Assembly: GCF_902459465.1 (NCBI RefSeq)
Contig: NC_047066.1
Coordinates: 6,569,047 to 6,633,046, forward strand
Direction: 5' to 3'
Source of the DNA: Asterias rubens
Lineage: Eukaryota
Length of the DNA stretch: 64,000 nucleotides
Of the stretch, positions 739 to 63,969 are shown piece by piece (positions within the stretch are counted from its first letter, which is position 1; each line of letters opens with the position of its first letter). Position numbers and translations under genes: made by a program. Under the pieces are notes generated by a model. That model was not told the DNA's origin and made no database searches. It saw only the letters and a program-made list of their open reading frames with translations.

Positions 739-49222
<48,484 letters not shown>

Positions 49223-50656
49223 CTGAAAAAGAAAGAACAGACAAAAAAAAAAATTAAGATGTTTCAAAAGACAAACAAATCTTTCTGAACAAACAGAGGA
49301 CAGAAAAAATAAAAAATTAAGACATTTCAGAAGATTCTTTCTTAACCTTCAAGATCAAAATAAAAGTTGTCATTTCAAGGATAGCAGCTAATCAATAACA
49401 TCATTTTGCAGGATGATTGCAACCACCCTTACACATTGAGGGTATCAACTTTTTTCAGACTTTTGTTCCTTTTTTCTTTAGTCAAATGTAATTTTTCTAT
49501 CCAAACACAGTGATCATTATCTGGGAGGATAATGTTGACTGTTTGCAATGAGTAGAGATCATTAAGTAGTAGAAGACTAGCTAGCCATGCAAAGTTTTGT
49601 GAGCTCACTGCTTTTGTATTTACGCAATGTCCAAATTGGCGACTATATGTAGGTTTAGCACTGAAGGAGAGGACCACCTAGGAAAATATATAATTGAAAA
49701 AACTAATAAATTTGGCTTATTGGGATATTTCCCTCAAAATTTTGATTTGATCCTTCCAAGGATTACTTTATTCCCTTGTGAAAAAGGAAACCGTTTTCCC
49801 CAAATGCATAAAATCTTTTGCGATCATAAAAATTTGTTATCTAAGTGTGGACAAATTTGCATTGGAAGAAGACAGGCAACTTTACAAATTGTCAAAAGTG
49901 AAGTATCAAAAGTTTCACTCGCTGATTAATTGTGGGTCACATTGATTTTTGTTTATCTTGCATGTTGCATACTCTGCCATTTTTTTGAGCCATACAGCTT
50001 GCATAATCTGAAAACGATTTGTTTAATGTTTAGGCTACCTTAATCATTAAATTAATTATAGGGAAGACAAACATTAATAGTTTTGCTTCCAAGGTTCAAG
50101 AAGAGCCATTGTGTTTTAACATAAAGTTGAAAAAACAGTTTCAAAAGCGTTCATATGGCGCCACCACAAATGGAATTTGTTACATAATTTTGCAAAGGAA
50201 TTCAATTAGTCTCAGTTTCTTACCATTGGCTTTGTAGAAACATAAAAATCTTAAGGAAATTTGCAAAGTTTTTTTTACGGTTTTCGACCCTAAAAATATC
50301 TATCGACTGCTGCTTTCTTACTCAACTCATTTAAGTTGGGATAACTTTCACTCATTTTTTCAAAAAAGGGATATCTCATTGAGGTAAATTAGATACTATA
50401 TTATTTCATATTGAATGAAAAAGTGGTGGCGCCATACGGAAACTTTTCCTGAAGTTGTTACCCAAATCAATATCTAATAATAGACATCATAATTGCACAA
50501 ACATCAATTTAATATATCTACACGGTAGACGAGTACGTAGACTAGGTGACTTTATATAACACCCAAGCAGATCCTTGCCATTTGATTGGAGGATTGTCCG
50601 TCACGTGATAGCAAATAAAAGTACCATTGCACGCTGAGTCACTCGCCGTGCTTTTT

Positions 50657-53344: not shown

Positions 53345-53790
53345 TCTTAAAGATGCTATGTCAGATTTTTTGCCGATTTGACCCAAAAATTTTGATATGG
53401 GGTATTTTGATGGGGGTCGAGAAAATAACAAGCTTTCATTTGAGCCATTGCTCGAAAAAGTCCGCCAATTATTAGTAGCGGTGAAATAAAGTGCTCAAAA
53501 TTAGTTTTAAATTTTGATATGGGGTATTTTGATGGGGGTCGAGAAAATAACAAGCTTTCATTTGAGCCATTGCTCGAAAAAGTCCGCCAATTATTAGTAG
53601 CAGTGAAATAAAGTGCTCAAAATTACACGTGACCAATTCTTATGTGTTTTATAAGAAATGTTTTAAATTTTTGTCATGGTTCCTGACCATTAAAAGTAAA
53701 AGTTAAACTTTTTTTCGTTAGAGCAGGTGATACTCTTTGAAATACCATTCACTCGCCAAAAATCTGACATAGCATCTTTAACTACAGGAA
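53345..53790. mobile_element. Inverted-repeat-bounded element (TIR ...taaagatgctatgtcagattttt / aaaaatctgacatagcatcttta) containing an internal about 125-bp tandem duplication (53388..53635).
   Basis: Inverted termini at 53349.. and ..53780, with two tandem copies of ttttgatatggggtattttgatgggggtcgagaaaataacaagc... Confidence 0.55.
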
Positions 53791-55090: not shown

Positions 55091-55962
55091 CAGTCACAGC
55101 GTGCAACAATTGTTTTGTTATACCTTTGTTTAATTGTTATTCCTCTTCTCAAAGTTCTGTTGTCATCTTCAAACATCATTACGGCGGTCTATTCATTGTT
55201 TAATAAGCAGACGAACAAGAAACAATTCCCTCGAACCCACGGTTGTTTCGTACACAGCGCTGGAAATTGACCAACGCTGGGAACGATCAAGGTAATGTAC
55301 ACCGGTGTACATCACTTTTCATGTTACCCGGCCCGTTACACATGTAACATGCGTTTTTGTTGCGAGTCACATGATTGGTTCTCGACCAATCAAACTTCAC
55401 AGTTTGTTACCAAGGTATAAGAATTCTAGTTGTAAACCTCATAGGCCCCAACCGGGACCCCCCTGAAACTCTTTACCTGATTATCTTTACAGACACAGGA
55501 CAATTCAAAATTCCAAAAATCTCTTAAAACACAACGTATCAGATCGGCGTTCGAACACATGTGAGAATTTAGAGTAACCTTGACCGACGCCTTTGAAGGT
55601 TTTAAAGTCAAAGTGCACCTTACAAATGCGGTGTTGAAACCATTGTTATTATATAAGACCCACTTCACATACATGTATTGTAGCAGCCATATTGCTCTTT
55701 TTTGGGTGTACAATTTAGCATCACCTAGCCAGGAGTACGGTCGAGCAAAAGCCACTATTTACAAGTGTAAACAGTTCTTATTCACTCCATTTCCATACAA
55801 AAATAAGGGACGAATAATATTTTTGTTGGAAATAAATAATGGGTGAACAGTGAACTTTTACAACACACAAGTCTCACACAAAAAGTTGTCTGTTGCCAAA
55901 TCAGCTCTATCTAGTCTGGGATCATGCATTTGACCTGACTTGGGTAATGTCAAGGAGTTTTA

Positions 55963-56241
55963 AGGAACACGTTGCCTTAGATCGGACGAGTTGGTCTATA
56001 AAAAGTGGTTTACCTTTTACTGTGCCAACTAACACGGTCGGCCATTCATGGGAGTCAAAAATTGAAATGGCCCACCGTGTTAGTCGACGAGGTAAAAGGA
56101 AAACCGTGCAATTTCGAGGCATGTTTGTGTGGATCATTGTATTCTACTTTTACAACATCTTTCTACCCATATGCATTTTATAACAAACGGTTTCAAATGC
56201 TTTTCAAAGACCAACTCGACCGATCCAAGGCAACGTGTTCC
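55963..56241. mobile_element. Foldback element copy 2 (left arm partially deleted).
   Basis: Shares ggaacacgttgcc...ccaactaacacggtcggcc...ggcaacgtgttcc with the 9440..9856 copy. Confidence 0.65.
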
Positions 56242-56465
56242 TTTAATGAAACACGGGTCCAAGGCCGTGTCTGAATTGGCGGCTATTGCTAGGGCGATTG
56301 CTGGATCAGTGCATCATCATGCATTAGAGTATAGAGCGTCCTTAGCAACACACTTAGCAACAGACACAGCCGTAGCTGTAGTCACCTAGTTGGATACAGC
56401 CTGAGGGTAGACCGGAAAAAAAGTAGTGTGTACTCTTTATATCTGCTGATTACCAGGGATCGTTA

Positions 56466-56632
56466 CTGTCATAGACCCTTTTGGAAACCACGGCTTCAGC
56501 TTTGGATTCGGCTCAGGCTAGCTTGGCCCCCGCGGTTGTTTGATAGTTGCACATGCTTTGTGCATGCGCACAGGGCTTCATACGAGAGGACGGAGCGTGA
56601 AGCCGAATCCAAAGCTGAGGGTTCGAAAAGGG
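56466..56632. repeat. Hairpin element (arms cttcagctttggattcggctcagg / cctcagctttggattcggcttcacg inverted; outer arms ccttttggaaacc / ggttcgaaaaggg).
   Basis: Inverted repeat read directly. Confidence 0.6.
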
Positions 56633-57288
56633 CCATCGAGTTCCGGGAACCAGACGAAGATGGCAGCAGCTTGACAAAGGTCTACTTGATCGCCTTGATG
56701 AAGACTGTCTCATCTGTCTCTGGGTAGACTGCCGGCAGCATGTCGTACTCTATCCAACCATCAGACTTGACCTCGGCCTCCAATTTCTTTAACCTGTATG
56801 TGAGAAAGAAGACAGAGTTGACTTCTACCTATATGATCCTTTATCATGCTGTCACAATCTTGGTCATGTTCCCCGTTTCCAATAACAGAGATGAATGCTA
56901 ACATTCATTGCGCATGGCACCAGACTTATTTCTTCCAGCCTCAGTTTGGTTACAATGAGTGGGAATGGAGTAAAATCATGATGGCCACACCGTGATGAAG
57001 GTCTATAGCCCTTTCCCAAGAGCTGGTCGGATTTGGAACAGGCTACCGGTGGTTGCAGTCACTGCAACAAATCCGCAAGGGTTCCAGAGAGAAGCACTGC
57101 CAACTATAAGAGGGATGGAGGTTCCAATCTCTCTCAGGACAAACTGACAAAACCACAGCTTATAAAGAACAATGTTGACAGCATATAAGCACAGAGCACA
57201 AATGGAGTTTGCAAACGACCCTCTCCAGGACAGCAGCAATGCTTTATAACAACTCAAGATTCAAGACATAGTTCGAATGTCAGCTTTT

Positions 57289-57656
57289 AAAGGCACTGGA
57301 CACTATTGGTAACTACTCAAAATATTTGTTAGTATAAAAACTTACTTGGTCACGAGTAATGGAGAGCTGTTGATAGTATGAAACATTGTGAGAAACATCT
57401 CCCTCTGAAATAATGTAGTTTTTGAGAAAGAAGTAAATTCTCACTAAAATATTTGAATTTGATTTCGAGATCTCAGAATTAGATTTTGAGGTCCCGAAAT
57501 CAAGCATCTGAAAGCACACAACTTCGTGTGACAAGAGTGTTTTTTCTTCCATTATTATCTCGCAACTTTCGACGACCACTTGAGCTCAAATTTTCACAGG
57601 TTTGTTATTTTGTGCATATGTTGAGACAATTACCAAAGGTGTCCAGTGTCTTTAAA
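57289..57656 (+). mobile_element. MITE family A copy overlapping the last codons and stop of the K/S/D/E-rich protein gene.
   Basis: TIRs aaaggcactggacactattggtaactactcaa / gacaattaccaaaggtgtccagtgtcttt. Confidence 0.8.
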
Positions 57657-57907
57657 GAGTTCAAACATATACCTCCTTTTCTCTGCAGTGTTGGCTTTCT
57701 TGATTTCCTTAATCGTCGGGCATCTGTTAAGCTTCACATTTCCCGATCGACGTCGTGCGGCAATTCTGTTCTTTCTTCCCCTCTTGAGCAACGTATCGTA
57801 GAAAATGCTGCGAAGGGCACTCTGGTGATCCTCCCTGTCCTTACTAGAGATCAAAGGCTCTTCCCATTCCAGTGGCATTGGGGTAATCAGGCCCTCACAA
57901 ATGGCTC
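57630..57907 (-). CDS. Terminal coding exon of the same gene: (R)AICEGLITPMPLEWEEPLISSKDREDHQSALRSIFYDTLLKRGRKNRIAARRRSGNVKLNRCPTIKEIKKANTAEKRRYMFELFKDTGHLW*. Stop at 57630..57632 lies inside a MITE TIR.
   Basis: Acceptor tttccacag|GAGCC at 57907, phase-1 compatible with the upstream donor. Basic C-terminal domain. The last 8 codons overlap the MITE at 57289..57656. Confidence 0.6.
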
Positions 57908-58424
57908 CTGTGGAAATGAAATGTTCAAATAATTGTCACAGTCACAAGAAAGTATTAAAAGATTTGTCAGACTGTAAATTAACTATTAAAAATAGTTTAT
58001 TCTTGTGTTTTAACACTTCAAGGCAATAGAATAAAAGAATGAATCACTATTTCCAAATTCGAAAGCGATTCAAAGAGACATATTCTTTCATCCAACTGAA
58101 CCTGGTTATCTTTTAAATACTGATTCAATTTGGATATATAAATTTTTGATGACAAAAATCTTTAAAAGTGCTGTAACTGGGGCTCAATTTCATAGAGCTG
58201 CTGTAAAAGCAGTAAACGTAGCTCAATACAAAATATGAATGCTTACCAGACTACGATCAACAGCCATAACACCATGTCACATGTACCATTCATGACTGGT
58301 AACCTGCTCCTTTTTGCTAAGCAGAAATGTTAAGCAAAAGTTCCTGCTTAAGCAGCTCTATGAAATTGGGCACAGGTAAACTAGGCCTATAAACTAGGCA
58401 ACAAGACCACTGACTTCCACTTAC

Positions 58425-61400
58425 TGTTAGTATCAGACTTGATGGTGTACATGATAGGGTCGTAATTCTTGTCGCGGATCTCTCCAAAGTTGCGGCTGGC
58501 TTTCCAAGCATCTGGTTTCGCATCAGTGGCTGGAACATTCTCCATCATTTTTCTTGCTGCCTCCTGTTTGAAAATCGTCAGCAGTTTACCCTTGTCCTTT
58601 AACAATCCATGGACTAGTGGCTTGCTCTTAATAATGTCTGAATCCAGATGTTCACTTCCCGTCAGGACAGGATTTGTTGTAGCTTTCCTTTTTACTCTCT
58701 CCTTTCTCGGTCTATTACCAACTAAACATGTACAACCATGTTTCTTGCCCCTGAAGGATTTGCCCATGTGGTCAAACGGACAAGCAGAACTTTCAACTTC
58801 ATGTAGAAATCTGCTCGGAAAGATTTGGTCAACTGATTCTTCATCGCTACTGCATGAATGTTCATCCTCAAGAACTTCTTCAGCTGTCTTTGAGCTATTC
58901 CTTGGACCTCTATCTGCCTGTTTCTTCTTACACACAACACTACTACCTTCTACTGCAAGAAGGAGACTTGAATCATCGCTGTCAAAACCATCAACTCCTT
59001 CCTCATCATCTTTACTAGCATCTTCCTCAGCCAAGTTTTCTTGCACATCACCACCCTCCTCATCAGTGTTACTCCTCACATTATCTTCACCATTTTGCAA
59101 ATTTTTCCTCATTCCAAGCTCGGTGACGATCTGTCCGCCATGACCAACATCGTCACAATGACTGCCATCTCTCATATCATCAGCTTCCCTGAGATTTTTA
59201 TCTCCATTACCAGTAGAGTTCCCTTCTCTATCTTTGTCTTCATCATCCATGAGTTTGCCAACAAGGCTTTCGACATCATTGGAGCAATCATCGTACGAAT
59301 CACTTTCTTCTTCGTCTTGATCTTTCACGCTTAAAACCAAATCTACAGTGTCAAAGTAATAATCACTATCGTCGCTGTCTTTAGCGCTCTTTGAGCTGCT
59401 CTTACCCGATGACACAGTACTGTTCATCAATTTTGTCCATGCAAGATTTTTCTTTGATTTTGTTATCGTCAAGGTTTTCTTTTCTTTTGGTTGTCCTCCT
59501 TTGGTGTCTTCCTTTGTTTCTAATTTGGTAAACTTTGTGGATTGCGCCAAACTAGAAGTGCCTCCTTGCTCTTTATCTTCAGACTTCCCACCGGATGACA
59601 GTTGTTTATTCTTCTTTGTTAATTTTCTATCATTCATTAATTCTGCAACAACTTCTGTTGCTTCCATTGTCTTTAAGGATCTTCTAAAATCACTCTTCTT
59701 CGGTGCATTTTTTATTTCTCCTTTGAGGGCTTTCTCTTGTTTTGCTGTTTTACTCTTTGTAGATTTTTTCAAACTACTGGATTTGCCAATGATGCCTAGA
59801 TCACCTTGATGGTCAGTGCCGACAGCATCTTCACCGGTATTATCAATTCTTGATTCTCCACAGTTGTCTTCAGAAGTTTTCTCAATGGGACTATTTTGAA
59901 CATCCACTTGTTTAGTCTTCCTTGCCAGTTTAGTCTTTACCTGTTTACTCTCTGTCTGTGTCTCTGTCTTCTCCAACAGTGTTTTGTTTTTCAACTTCTT
60001 AAGCGGTCTGCTCTTGTCTGGTTCACCTTCCTTCCTTTTTCCTAAATCACAACTGTTTTTAACTTGTATACTCTTTGGTGAATTTCTTTCTTTCCGTTCT
60101 CCTTCTTGGGCATTTGTCTTTGTCGATGTCTTCTTTTTGGATTGTCTCGGGCTCTCTATCAGTTTACCATTGTCCACTCTTTCATTGCAGTTGTCCAAAC
60201 TAAGGTTCTTTTCCATGCTTTCTGTCAGGACAGATTTTATCTTGGATTTGCCCATGTCAGCCATTTCAGGTAGAGTTTTTTGTGTCAACTTTTTATGTGA
60301 TTTGCTCTTGTACAATAATCCAGCGTAATTTCGGGGGTCATCTTGTTCCCTGTCCGTTCGATCAAGACTCTTTTTGATATTTTTCCTCTGAGGTGGTTTT
60401 CCTTTTTTCAAAAGTCCATCTTTGGTTTGTTTGTCTGTCGTTAATTGTGTCACCTTTCCGGACTGTTTCAAAGAATCACTTTCTTCTTCGTCTTGATCTT
60501 TCACGCTTAAAACCAAATCTACAGTGTCAAAGTAATAATCACTATCGTCGCTGTCTTTAGCGCTCTTTGAGCTGCTCTTACCCGATGACACAGCACTGTT
60601 TATCAATTTTGTCCATGCAAGATTTTTCTTTGATTTTGTTATCGTCAAGGTTTTCTTTTCTTTTGGTTGTCCTCCTTTGGTGTCTTCCTTTGTTTCTAAT
60701 TTGGTAAACTTTGTGGATTGCGCCAAACTAGAAGTGCCTCCTTGCTCTTTATCTTCAGACTTCCCACCAGATGACAGTTGTTTATTCTTCTTTGTTAATT
60801 TTCTATCATTCATTAATTCTGCAACAACTTCTGTTGCTTCCATTGTCTTTAAGGATCTTCTAAAATCACTCTTCTTCGGTGCATTTTTTATTTCTCCTTT
60901 GAGGGCTTTCTCTTGCTTTGCTGTTTTACTCTTTGTAGATTTTTTCAAACTACTGGCTTTGCCAATGATGCCTAGATCACCTTGATGGTCAGTGCCGACA
61001 GCATCTTCATCGGTATTATCAATTCTTGATTCTCCACAGTTGTCTTCAGAAGTTTTCTCAATGGGACTATTTTGAACATCCACTTGTTTAGTCTTCCTTG
61101 CCAGTTTAGTATTTACCTTTTTACTCTCTGTCTGTGTCTCTGTCTTCTCCAACAGTGTTTTGTTTTTCAACTTCTTAAGCGGGCTGCTCTTGTCTGGTTC
61201 ACCTTCCTTCCTTTTTCTTAAATCACAACTGTTTTTAACTTGTATACTCTTTGGTGAATTTCTTTCTTTCCGTTCTCCTTCTTGGGCATTTGTCTTTGTC
61301 GATGTCATCTTTTTGGATTGTCTCGGGCTCTCTATCAGTTTACCATTGTCCACTCTTTCATTGCAGTTGTCCAAACTAAGGTTCTTTTCCATGCTTTCTG

Positions 61401-63969
61401 TCAGGACAGATTTTATCTTGGATTTGCCCATGTCAGCCATTTCAGGTAGAGTTTTTTGTGTCAACTTTTTATGTGATTTGCTCTTGTACAATAATCCAGC
61501 GTAATTTCGGGGGTCATCTTGTTGCCTGTCCGTTCGATCAAGACTCTTTTTGATATTTTTCCTCTGAGGTGGTTTTCCTTTTTTCAAAAGTCCATCTTTG
61601 ATTTGTTTGTCTGTCGTTAATTGTGTCACCTTTCCGGACTGTTTCAAAGAGCTGGTCTGACTCTTATCATCATGACCACCTTCATCTGATGATGTCATTA
61701 TTGCATCATCGCTGTTTTCATTTTCGTCATCACCAAGGCCCTCATCACAGCCATTTAAGCTTTGCTCACTTAAACTCCTTGACTCTCCATGTTGCTCCCC
61801 ACATGTCGATTGCTGATGGTCGTTTTTTCCATCTTCTTTAGTGTTCCTCGATTTTGTCTTTTCCCCAGTAGAAACCCCTCTGTTTTTTACTGTTTCCGCT
61901 TCAGACAACAATCCGGTCAGTTTCTGTGGCTTTTTCGCTTTTCTCTTCACCAATAGTCCACTGTTGTCTGGATCATATTCCAAACTTTCTGTCCGACTAA
62001 GACTCTTCTTTGTTTTTGGTCCCTTCGCAGATTTTCTTCCTCTCCGTAATCCAGCTTCGGTGACTTCTTTTGACTGTGTTGCTGTTGTAGTTTTTTGGAT
62101 GATGCTGCATTCACCTGAAACTCCTCTATTTTCATCATCTGGGGAATTCACAATAGTATCATCGCTATCTGAGCCACCAATGTCAGCATCAATGTCCTTG
62201 ATACCATCGTGCTCAGTTCTGTCAATGGTTGTTTGGCCATCAACATCTTCATCATCACCAAGGTTGTCGCCCTGAACAAGATTATTCTGATCACTGTTAG
62301 CATCACCATCTTCAGATTTAGCTGCCCGACTTCTTCTGTTAAGACCGCCTCTTTTGTTACTTCCTTTCTCTTTCCGATACTCACTTGTACTTTGCAGATT
62401 GGTTTTACCACAATCTTTTTTAACCTTCGTTGATTTTGTCCGTTTTCCATCACTCCTCTGCTTACGTGTCTTTAACATTTTTTGCTTGACTTGTAACGAT
62501 CCTTTCATTTCTGATTGTTTTTCTTTTTTTATTTGTGATTTGCTCTTCTTCAACAGTCTATCGTTGAGCTTAGCTGGACAATCATCTGAACTTACATAAT
62601 CTGGGATATTCAGACTTGTGTCATCGCTGTCAGAGCCACCAATGTCTTCAGTCTCATCTTTAAGAATATCTCCCTCCTCTCTGTTTTCTTTAACATTTAT
62701 TTGTGATTTGCTCTTCTTCTTCTTTAACAGTCTATCGTTGAGCTTAGCGGGACAATCATCTGAACTTACATAATCTGGGATATTCAGACTTGTGTCATCG
62801 CTGTCAGAGCCACCAATGTCTTCAGTCTCATCTTTAAGAATATCTCCCTCCTCTCTGTTTTCTTTAACATGGCCATCAAGATTTTCATCATTATCAAGTT
62901 TGTCCTCATCAGTACATTCCTTTCTTTCAACCTGACGTTCGTCACTAACATCCAGACGAAAAACTTCATCATCATGATCACTCCCATCCCTATGATCTTT
63001 CTCGTCTCTGTCAGTAGATTCAACTGCCTGACTGCTTGGCTCCTGCTGCTTATCCTTACAATCTATTTCATGATGGCTAGTTTCAAAACCTGTTTCTTTA
63101 AAGGCCTTTGATTCTGCTTGTTTCTCCTTTGCTATCATATTTTTCTCTGCCTGCTGTTTGAAAATCTTCAACATTTTACCCTTGTCAGCCAGTAACCCTG
63201 TGGGGTTCAATCGCTTCGTCGGTTTCACCTGTTCTGATTTACTCTCGTCATCATCTAAAACAATATTTGAGCTTACTTGCTTTTGTAAGACGTTTTCTTG
63301 ACTGCCTGAAGAATTTTGATCTGTATCACTATCAGAACCATTTCCACTACTACTGATATCATTCACCCTCTCACCAATGCTGACCTTCAAATGACCAGGC
63401 ATGCCATGGCTTTCTTTAGGGGTGCCAATTAAGCTTATCTCCTCACTACTTGAAAATAGTTCGTCCAGTATTCTTCTTCGATTCTTTCGGGGTGACATTC
63501 TCCTGCCATAGACCTTATTATCTGTTATGTTTCTGTGTTGTCTATCTCTGATCACGTCTTCCTCAACTAAATTTTCACTCTGACTGTCATCGGTTACGTC
63601 AAACTCTTTAGCATCGCTGTAACAATCACTCTCTGGGTCGTCTTTCAACCTAGACTCAGTTGCTTGATCAAGGATGAAGGGATTTCCATAATCTCCATCA
63701 TCAAGTTCTTCGCTCCATTCATCCCAATTGTCAATACTAGAGAGAACATCACCTTCACCACACTCACTGGCAGAAGTTCCAACTATGGTGTGGTCATTAT
63801 CTTCCTTGTCACTGATGCCAACTTCTTCAGCACTAATGCTACCTTCTTCAGCACTACTCTCATCATTATCAATGAACTCTTCCACCTCAAAGAGTTCAAG
63901 GCTGCAGTCACTGCCACTACCATCTGCAAAAAGATCTTGATTCTCTTTGTCACTTTCTCGATCACCCAA
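58425..63969 (-). CDS. Giant single coding exon (window-truncated at its 5' side) of an unidentified Lys/Ser/Asp/Glu-rich low-complexity protein. It carries acidic serine clusters (GGSDSDDT), internal tandem duplications, and two copies of the motif GLLxDKGKxLxIFKQxA.
   Basis: Uninterrupted 1860-codon minus ORF. Ends at consensus donor AACAG|gtaagtgg (58424..58423). No stop in about 5.5 kb despite AT-rich DNA. Confidence 0.8.
59297..61648. repeat. Two tandem, in-frame copies of a 1176-bp (392-codon) unit inside the giant coding exon (59297..60472 and 60473..61648), about 99% identical.
   Basis: Direct comparison of the two blocks shows fewer than 15 substitutions. The period is exactly 1176 bp. 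Confidence 0.85.
62531..62870. repeat. Two tandem copies of an about 170-bp coding unit (VKENREEGDILKDETEDIGGSDSDDTSLNIPDYVSSDDCPAKLNDRLLKK...) inside the same exon.
   Basis: Near-identical DNA blocks 62531..62696 and 62697..62870. Confidence 0.8.

What the first reader, a model, noticed from the sequence alone, without database searches (positions are those of the whole stretch)
57620..57660. Stop codon and last 8 codons of a protein-coding gene lie inside a MITE terminal inverted repeat
The terminal exon reads ...AEKRRYMFELFKDTGHLW*. The stretch TTTAAAGACACTGGACACCTTTGGTAATTG is the TIR of MITE family A (copy 57289..57656). Either the MITE inserted into the 3' coding end and supplied a new stop by exaptation, or a weak donor (AGG AG|gtatat at about 57660) splices past it to an unseen exon.
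Basis: seen in the sequence. Interest (0 to 1): 0.5.

Follow-up and report, generated by a model that had tools for sequence, protein, structure and literature searches.

The report
Intronic MITE, not a coding end
The "stop codon inside a transposon repeat" comes from reading an unspliced intron: the starfish gene splices 17 bases before the small transposon and ends in a real exon 0.9 kb further on, so this is an ordinary intronic transposon.

Summary
The sequence facts are right. On the minus strand an open frame reads ...AEKRRYMFELFKDTGHLW* and its TAA (57632-57630) lies in the 27-nt terminal inverted repeat of a 369-bp, TTAA-flanked MITE (57287-57655). That frame is intron read-through, not the gene's end.

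- **Splicing.** The donor GAG|GTATAT (exon ends at 57673) joins in phase to the acceptor ...ctcacatacAG|G. The terminal exon is 56793-56682 and encodes ...AEKRR-LKKLEAEVKSDGWIEYDMLPAVYPETDETVFIKAIK*.
- **Annotation.** This spliced model, built before any database hit, matches residue for residue (1963 aa) the C-terminal part of RefSeq XP_033627698.1, "uncharacterized protein LOC117290414", Asterias rubens.
- **Ortholog.** The A. amurensis ortholog is annotated with the same C-terminus. It carries the same MITE at the same site, with identical splice sites.
- **No coding sequence lost.** Without the MITE, read-through would already stop two codons past the TTAA (...ELFKS*).
The second one (a weak donor splicing past the MITE) is correct. 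The exaptation reading is not supported.

No RNA data could be checked, so a minor intron-retention isoform, or use of the cryptic in-phase donor TTG|GTAATT in the repeat, is not excluded. One oddity remains: the MITE is about five times less diverged between the two species than the neighbouring non-coding DNA. Interest is low.

The parts
58425..63969 (-). Giant coding exon (exon A) of LOC117290414, ending ...IKSDTN with donor AACA|GTAAGT. The part inside the window holds about 1848 codons. The gene continues upstream beyond the window.
   Evidence: 1860-aa ORF; donor located; identical to XP_033627698.1.
57673..57907 (-). Penultimate coding exon (exon B): (R)AICEGLITPMPLEWEE...KKANTAEKR(R). 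Acceptor ttccacAG|GA; ends ...AAAAGGAG with two bases of an AGG codon.
   Evidence: 100% match to residues 2757-2833 of P0003.
57667..57675 (-). 5' splice site GAG|GTATAT (GT at 57672-57671), phase 2. It is weakish (no +5 G) but has -2A, -1G, +3A and +6T.
   Evidence: Identical in A. amurensis.
57630..57671 (-). In-frame read-through of the unspliced intron: YMFELFKDTGHLW then TAA (57632-57630). It is not part of the annotated coding sequence.
   Evidence: Codon log-odds -8.75 over 13 codons. Absent from P0003 and P0005.
57287..57655 (.). 27-nt terminal inverted repeats and an internal 21-nt palindrome (57459-57503). It lies wholly inside the last intron, starting 17 nt after the exon end.
   Evidence: The TTAA duplication and AG...CT termini were confirmed at another orthologous site. 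No Pfam domain in its 88-aa ORF. RNA fold z = -6.6.
57628..57636 (-). Cryptic donor-like site TTG|GTAATT inside the repeat, overlapping the TAA. It has the same phase as the real donor. If used, it would add 13 residues in frame.
   Evidence: Inference only; no transcript evidence.
56794..57672 (-). Last intron, 879 nt, of which 365 nt (the 361-nt element core plus one duplicated TTAA) were added by the MITE insertion.
56682..56793 (-). True terminal coding exon (exon C): G + LKKLEAEVKSDGWIEYDMLPAVYPETDETVFIKAIK + TAG (56684-56682). Acceptor tctgtcttctttctcacatacAG|G.
   Evidence: best polypyrimidine tract, 0.8; coding score +10.1. Identical to the ends of P0003 and P0005. One synonymous difference from A. 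amurensis. The A. amurensis gene record ends at this stop codon.

Best explanation
The window is Asterias rubens DNA. The gene on the minus strand is LOC117290414, a 2870-aa uncharacterized protein with no recognised domain.

Its penultimate exon ends at 57673. The last intron (57672-56794) is spliced from GAG|GTATAT to ...acatacAG|G. The terminal exon (56793-56682) supplies the last 36 full codons, the third base of the split AGG (Arg) codon and the stop.

A 369-bp TTAA-flanked MITE inserted at a TTAA 17 nt inside this intron, before A. rubens and A. amurensis split. Its termini read 5'-AGG...CCT-3', which is Kolobok/T2-like.

The frame of the penultimate exon happens to stay open for 13 codons in the unspliced intron. 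It therefore runs into the TGG-TAA of the MITE's repeat. That is a by-product of reading genomic DNA without splicing, not a coding exaptation.

Shown:
- the anatomy of the region;
- phase compatibility of donor and acceptor;
- identity to annotated proteins in two species;
- presence of the MITE in both species.

Inferred: that the annotated splice is the predominant one in vivo. No RNA data were examined here.
For: 1. A spliced model was built from sequence alone, before any database hit. It is in frame and ends ...AEKRRLKKLEAEVKSDGWIEYDMLPAVYPETDETVFIKAIK*.
2. A search with exon B alone found P0003 with the match at residues 2757-2833 of 2870. That leaves 37 residues after the match, the number the spliced model predicts; read-through predicts 14.
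3. P0003 is XP_033627698.1 / XP_033627699.1 of A. rubens. Its last 1963 residues equal the spliced model.
4. The A. amurensis ortholog P0005, from a separate assembly record (GCA_032118995.1), has the same last exon. Its gene record ends exactly at the exon C stop.
5. Donor, acceptor and MITE are all present and identical in A. amurensis.
6. Exon C differs by 1 substitution in 112 nt, and it is synonymous. Adjacent non-coding DNA differs by 4.06%.
7. The codon log-odds for exon C is +10.1, and only 4.5% of stop-free non-coding windows reach that. The read-through tail scores -8.75.
8. Among in-phase AG sites within 1.3 kb downstream of the donor, exon C has the best polypyrimidine tract among those followed by more than 6 open codons.
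9. No AATAAA or ATTAAA lies on the minus strand between the repeat's stop and exon C.
10. With the MITE removed, the sequence reads ...CTC TTT AAA AGC TGA, so the insertion interrupted no longer reading frame.
Against: - Both protein records are computational gene models. I could not inspect RNA-seq or cDNA support.
- The donor GTATAT lacks the usual +5 G.
- The two Asterias species are very close, so conservation of exon C is only marginally significant on its own (Poisson P = 0.06).
- No more distant ortholog was found, and none lacking the MITE.
- The unusually low divergence of the MITE is not explained by this model, though it does not contradict it.
Confidence: 0.9

Rival explanations
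1. Exaptation: the MITE inserted into the 3' end of the coding sequence and now supplies the last codons (DTGHLW) and the stop of the main protein product.
For: The frame is open from exon B into the repeat and stops at its TAA. The donor is not a perfect consensus. The read-through stretch is identical in A. amurensis.
Against: - Annotated proteins in two species splice to exon C.
- The read-through tail scores as non-coding.
- The pre-insertion sequence already stopped two codons past the TTAA, so no coding sequence was displaced.
- There is no poly(A) signal before exon C.
- Identity of the tail between the species carries no weight, because the whole 700-nt block is nearly identical.
Confidence: 0.03
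2. Minor-isoform use of the MITE. Either the last intron is sometimes retained, giving a protein that lacks the last 36 residues and ends ...YMFELFKDTGHLW. Or the cryptic donor TTG|GTAATT in the repeat is sometimes used, inserting 13 residues in frame before LKKLEAEV.... The main product would still be the annotated one.
For: - The cryptic donor has the same phase as the real one and is of similar strength.
- A retained last intron leaves no downstream exon junction, so it would not trigger nonsense-mediated decay (established knowledge).
- The MITE and its surroundings are unusually conserved between the two species.
Against: - There is no transcript evidence.
- RefSeq lists two transcript variants, and both encode the same protein without the MITE-derived residues.
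- The low divergence covers the whole 369-bp element plus flanks, not just the 22 coding-frame bases, so coding constraint cannot explain it.
Confidence: 0.07

Closest known systems
Intronic MITE insertions in animal genes (non-autonomous class II elements sitting in introns and removed by splicing)
   Same: Small (369 bp), 27-nt terminal inverted repeats, 4-bp target duplication, no coding capacity, multi-copy, located in an intron of an expressed-type gene model.
   Different: Nothing material. The only peculiarity is its position, 17 nt from the 5' splice site, which lets the exon's frame run into the repeat.
Kolobok superfamily / Xenopus T2-type MITEs, as described in PMC6004289
   Same: TTAA target-site duplication and element termini beginning 5'-AG (AGG...). 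Those are the two features that paper gives for T2-MITEs and Kolobok. They are seen here at 6 of 6 ends of three copies and at an orthologous site holding different elements in the two species.
   Different: The T2 motif is AGGRR, whereas this family has AGGCA/AGACA. No autonomous Kolobok transposase partner was sought or found. There is no sequence similarity to the Xenopus repeats listed in the paper.
piggyBac-derived MITEs
   Same: TTAA target-site duplication.
   Different: From my own knowledge, not tested against a library: canonical piggyBac ends start 5'-CCC...GGG-3'. This family starts 5'-AGG...CCT-3'.
TE exonization, or TE-derived stop codons and C-termini (as with Alu or MITE exonization)
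   Same: A transposable-element sequence carries an in-frame stop and a GT donor-like site next to a coding exon.
   Different: In the annotated transcripts of two species the element sequence is not in the coding sequence. It would count as exonization only if a minor isoform were demonstrated.

Membership tests
MITE (non-autonomous class II transposable element) | Terminal inverted repeats | tested here: met
   27-nt arms, 89% complementary. The same repeats occur in other copies.
MITE (non-autonomous class II transposable element) | Target-site duplication flanking the element | tested here: met
   TTAA on both sides of three full copies. At an orthologous TTAA site the flanks are shared between species while the inserted elements differ, which fixes the boundaries at TTAA|AG...CT|TTAA.
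MITE (non-autonomous class II transposable element) | Short, multi-copy, no transposase | tested here: met
   369 bp. Four copies in the 64-kb window and one further full copy plus a fragment in 19 kb of A. amurensis. Its only ORF (88 aa) has no Pfam hit.
Kolobok / T2-type MITE | TTAA target and RR (AG) terminal bases of the repeat | tested here: met
   against the description in PMC6004289.
Kolobok / T2-type MITE | Mobilised by, or sharing ends with, an autonomous Kolobok element encoding the transposase | not tested
   No autonomous partner was looked for. No eukaryotic repeat library is available in these tools.
piggyBac-type MITE | Repeat termini 5'-CCC...GGG-3' with TTAA duplication | tested here: not met
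   TTAA is present, but the termini are AGG...CCT. The CCC/GGG criterion comes from general knowledge.
TE exaptation into coding sequence | The TE-derived bases are part of the mature mRNA coding sequence | tested here: not met
   The annotated proteins of A. rubens and A. amurensis skip the MITE. These are gene models, not RNA data.
TE exaptation into coding sequence | Transcript evidence (RNA-seq or 3' RACE) for use of the TE-borne stop | not testable with these tools
   No transcript data are accessible. Exact look-up of the read-through ORF found nothing.

The most novel reading that the evidence does not exclude
The intronic MITE is not inert. Its roughly fivefold lower divergence between A. 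rubens and A. amurensis could reflect constraint, in one of two ways:
- It provides a regulated alternative 5' splice site or retained-intron isoform, so that a fraction of the protein carries a MITE-encoded tail or a 13-residue insert.
- Its strongly folding RNA helps define the weak GTATAT donor 17 nt upstream.
Probability: 0.08. Interest if true: 0.35.

Novelty: not a real feature. Interest (0 to 1): 0.08.

Why it matters
It matters little biologically. The MITE is a real but ordinary intronic insertion, and the gene model that explains it is already in RefSeq.

The value is as a caution. In intron-rich genomes, an exon's frame often stays open for a few codons past the donor. A stop found there, even inside a transposon, does not show that the coding sequence ends there.

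If a minor MITE-using isoform were shown, it would be a small example of TE exonization in an echinoderm.

Tried and rejected
- **Word-indexed protein search** with the spliced 245-aa C-terminus found nothing. The same tool later returned P0003 when the whole protein was the query, so that negative was a limit of the index, not evidence of absence.
- **Pfam** on the C-terminus and on the whole P0003 found no domain. A PDB sequence search found nothing even at E = 10.
- **JGI metagenome scan** for relatives found none.
- **Exact look-ups** of the read-through ORF and of P0003 in the contig collection found nothing on record.
- **Literature search** for the repeat sequence found no papers.
- **Rfam** on the region gave only sub-threshold miRNA-like hits on the MITE's palindrome.
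- **Bacterial promoter/terminator scan** is irrelevant for a eukaryote.
- **ORF length** as evidence for exon C was rejected as weak. Another frame is open for 78 codons across the same region, but it has a poor acceptor and a negative coding score.
- **A more distant ortholog without the MITE** could not be obtained. Only A. amurensis was found, and it has the MITE.

Full report
**1. What is in the sequence**

The window is eukaryotic, with about 40% G+C, introns and many short inverted-repeat elements. The TAA is at 57632-57630.

An inverted repeat with 27-nt arms (57286-57312 and 57630-57656, 89% complementary, 317 nt apart) encloses the region. Its 18-nt core, TTTAAAGRCACTGGACAC, occurs 7 times in the window against 0.01 expected.

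Full-length relatives lie at 23418-23801 and 26507-26880. A fourth copy (3560-3776 and 5674-5704) is split by about 1.9 kb that encodes a reverse transcriptase.

In three full copies, similarity begins and ends at TTAA|AG...CT|TTAA.

**2. The gene structure**

The same strand carries a giant open exon (the ORF 58387-63969) that ends at a strong donor, AACA|GTAAGT (58425/58424). It is followed by the exon in question (57907-57673, acceptor ttccacAG|GA).

That exon ends ...AAA AGG AG|GTATAT.

An acceptor lies 879 nt downstream, tctgtcttctttctcacatacAG|G, with a TCAAC branch-point-like site about 24 nt upstream of the acceptor AG. It opens a frame that is in phase: two bases from the exon plus one from here restore AGG. 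The frame reads LKKLEAEVKSDGWIEYDMLPAVYPETDETVFIKAIK, then TAG at 56684-56682. I built this model from the DNA before any database match was known.

**3. Tests of the model from the sequence alone**

- Among in-phase AG sites within 1.3 kb downstream of the donor, the site at 56793 has the best polypyrimidine tract (80% C/T) among those followed by more than 6 open codons. ORF length alone does not discriminate, because another frame stays open for 78 codons across the same region.
- I trained a codon log-odds score on 4097 codons of the window's large exons against its non-coding DNA.
  - Exon C scores +10.1, or +0.28 per codon. Exon B scores +0.16 per codon.
  - Only 4.5% of stop-free non-coding windows of the same length reach the exon C score.
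  - The 13-codon read-through tail scores -8.75, and the rival open frame scores -7.9.
- No AATAAA or ATTAAA occurs on the minus strand between the repeat's stop and exon C. The first, an ATTAAA, is at 56247.
- Removing the MITE and one TTAA restores ...GAA CTC TTT AAA AGC TGA. The unspliced frame already stopped two codons past the insertion site, so the MITE displaced no coding sequence.

**4. Database evidence**

A full HMMER search with exon B alone (77 aa) found two proteins.

- **P0003.** It is 100% identical, with the match at residues 2757-2833 of 2870. That leaves 37 residues, as the spliced model predicts; read-through predicts 14.
  - It is XP_033627698.1 / XP_033627699.1, "uncharacterized protein LOC117290414 [Asterias rubens]".
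  - Its last 1963 residues are identical to my exon A + B + C model. This also identifies the organism.
  - It has no Pfam domain.
- **P0004.** This rodent repeat protein gave only a weak, unrelated-looking match.

A search with the whole protein found one ortholog, P0005 of Asterias amurensis (3227 aa, 88% identity over 60% of the query). It ends with the same ...AEKRRLKKLEAEVKSDGWIEYDMLPAVYPETDETVFIKAIK.

Its locus (L005, from GCA_032118995.1) puts the gene end exactly at the exon C stop codon.

**5. The orthologous locus**

Window 58600-55753 (minus strand) aligns colinearly with L005 13162-16023 at 94% identity. The MITE is present at the same TTAA in A. amurensis, and the donor and acceptor are identical. 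The insertion therefore predates the split of the two species.

Divergence by region:

| Region | Substitutions / aligned nt | Divergence |
|---|---|---|
| Intron A-B | 18 / 516 | 3.5% |
| Intron after the MITE | 26 / 487 | 5.3% |
| 3' flank | 34 / 917 | 3.7% |
| Exon B | 2 / 235 | 0.85% |
| Exon C | 1 / 112 (synonymous) | 0.89% |

Exon C is thus conserved like an exon. With so few sites this is only marginal on its own (Poisson P = 0.06).

**6. Verdict on the finding**

- The exaptation alternative is not supported.
- The main caveat is that both protein records are computational gene models. No RNA data could be examined, and exact look-ups for transcript-derived ORFs found nothing.

I put about 0.9 on the spliced, intronic-MITE explanation for the main product. 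I put about 0.07 on the MITE additionally contributing to a minor isoform. That could happen through retention of the last intron, or through the cryptic donor TTG|GTAATT at 57633, which overlaps the TAA and has the same phase. I put about 0.03 on the repeat's stop being the main stop.

**7. What kind of MITE**

Three features point to a Kolobok-type element:

- The target duplication is TTAA.
- The element ends read 5'-AGG...CCT-3'.
- At another locus the two species carry different MITEs between identical flanks at the same TTAA. A. amurensis has a family-A copy at L005 17684-18061, and A. rubens has a different AGATGC...GCATCT element at about 53353-53777. This fixes the boundaries and shows recent activity.

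TTAA plus AG/RR termini are the features given for Kolobok and Xenopus T2-MITEs in PMC6004289. Canonical piggyBac ends (CCC...GGG, from general knowledge) do not fit. No autonomous partner was sought, so superfamily assignment stays provisional.

**8. An unexplained detail**

The MITE differs between the two species at only 3 of 357 aligned positions, plus one 12-bp indel. That compares with 14.5 substitutions expected from 4.06% in 1920 nt of neighbouring non-coding DNA (Poisson P = 3e-4).

The low-divergence block runs from about 57916 to 57218. It covers exon B, the donor, the MITE and 69 nt beyond. A different MITE in the 3' flank (55959-56246) shows ordinary divergence.

The explanation I favour is a shallow genealogy around an insertion that arose shortly before the species split. 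The family was still active then. Both substitutions in exon B are non-synonymous, which argues against strong constraint there.

Constraint on the MITE itself cannot be excluded. Its RNA folds with z = -6.6, as expected for any element of this kind, and Rfam finds nothing above threshold.

**9. Novelty and interest**

An intronic MITE in a gene whose correct model is already in RefSeq is ordinary. The claimed feature, a coding end supplied by a repeat, is not real for the annotated product. Interest is about 0.08.

Noticed in passing
window 57218-57916 vs L005 13863-14550: The intronic MITE and its immediate surroundings are about five times less diverged between A. rubens and A. amurensis than neighbouring non-coding DNA: 3 substitutions in 357 nt against 14.5 expected (P = 3e-4). 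The cause could be a shallow genealogy around a young shared insertion, or constraint. It is unresolved.
   Followed up: partly
window 53353-53777 vs L005 17684-18061: At one orthologous TTAA site the two species carry different MITE families between identical flanks. A. rubens has an AGATGCTATGTCAG... element with an internal tandem duplication. A. amurensis has a family-A AGGCAGTGGACAC... element, whose right TTAA has mutated to TTGA. This means either independent insertions at the same target or a replacement.
   Followed up: partly
window 3560-5704: A family-A MITE is split by about 1.9 kb that carries reverse-transcriptase ORFs on the minus strand (4260-4976 and 5037-5678; RVT_1, E = 3e-12). 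This is a retroelement fragment nested in a MITE.
   Followed up: partly
window 58425-63969 (-), especially about 59.4-61.6 kb and 62.6-62.9 kb: The giant exon contains a nearly perfect tandem duplication of about 1176 bp (about 392 aa) and a shorter duplicated unit (VKENREEGDILKDETEDIGGSDSDDTSLNIPDY...). A different, shorter unit of the same exon (...NLQKLTGLLSEAETVKNRGVS...SLKQSGKVTQLTTDKQTKDGLLKKGKPPQRK) is repeated about seven times in A. amurensis (3227 aa against 2870 aa). This accounts for the strong negative GC and AT skew at 58-64 kb.
   Followed up: no
window about 1-49300 (-): The rest of the window is mostly an EP400 (p400/Domino) homolog on the minus strand. It has an EP400_N domain at 48056-49267 (E = 1.5e-16), large Q/P-rich exons (15168-19169, 31276-31974) and an AT-hook-like [11 protein letters not shown]. 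Marine plankton metagenome contigs (the SOLA22 series and a Tara Oceans assembly) encode 100%- and 79%-identical fragments of the EP400_N exon.
   Followed up: partly
window 57675-57905 (-) vs P0004: The exon B motif (TPMPLEWEEP...SALRSIFYDTLLKRGRK) resembles a unit repeated five times (MPVIPPIGRQWEDYHCESK...FQKIIHDTLSKKKED) in a jerboa protein, 'MLP1-like' XP_045012999.1 (29% identity, E = 1.5e-9 summed over repeats). Its significance is unclear.
   Followed up: no
window 9440-9849, 55959-56246; 11224-11353, 24984-25114; 26197-26258: Other repeat families are present. A MITE with AAAGGAACACGTTGCCTTAGAT repeats has two copies, one of them in the 3' flank of the gene. A 130-bp hairpin element, AGGCCGTGTCCGAAACGACG..., also has two copies. 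A tRNA-like sequence (Rfam tRNA, 34 bits) lies about 250 nt from the family-A copy at 26.5 kb.
   Followed up: no
window 56480-56625: An imperfect inverted repeat (GGCTTCAGCTTTGGATTCGGCT / AGCCGAATCCAAAGCTGAGGGT) lies about 60-200 nt downstream of the true stop codon, in the presumed 3' UTR. It was seen by eye in the sequence and was not analysed.
   Followed up: no
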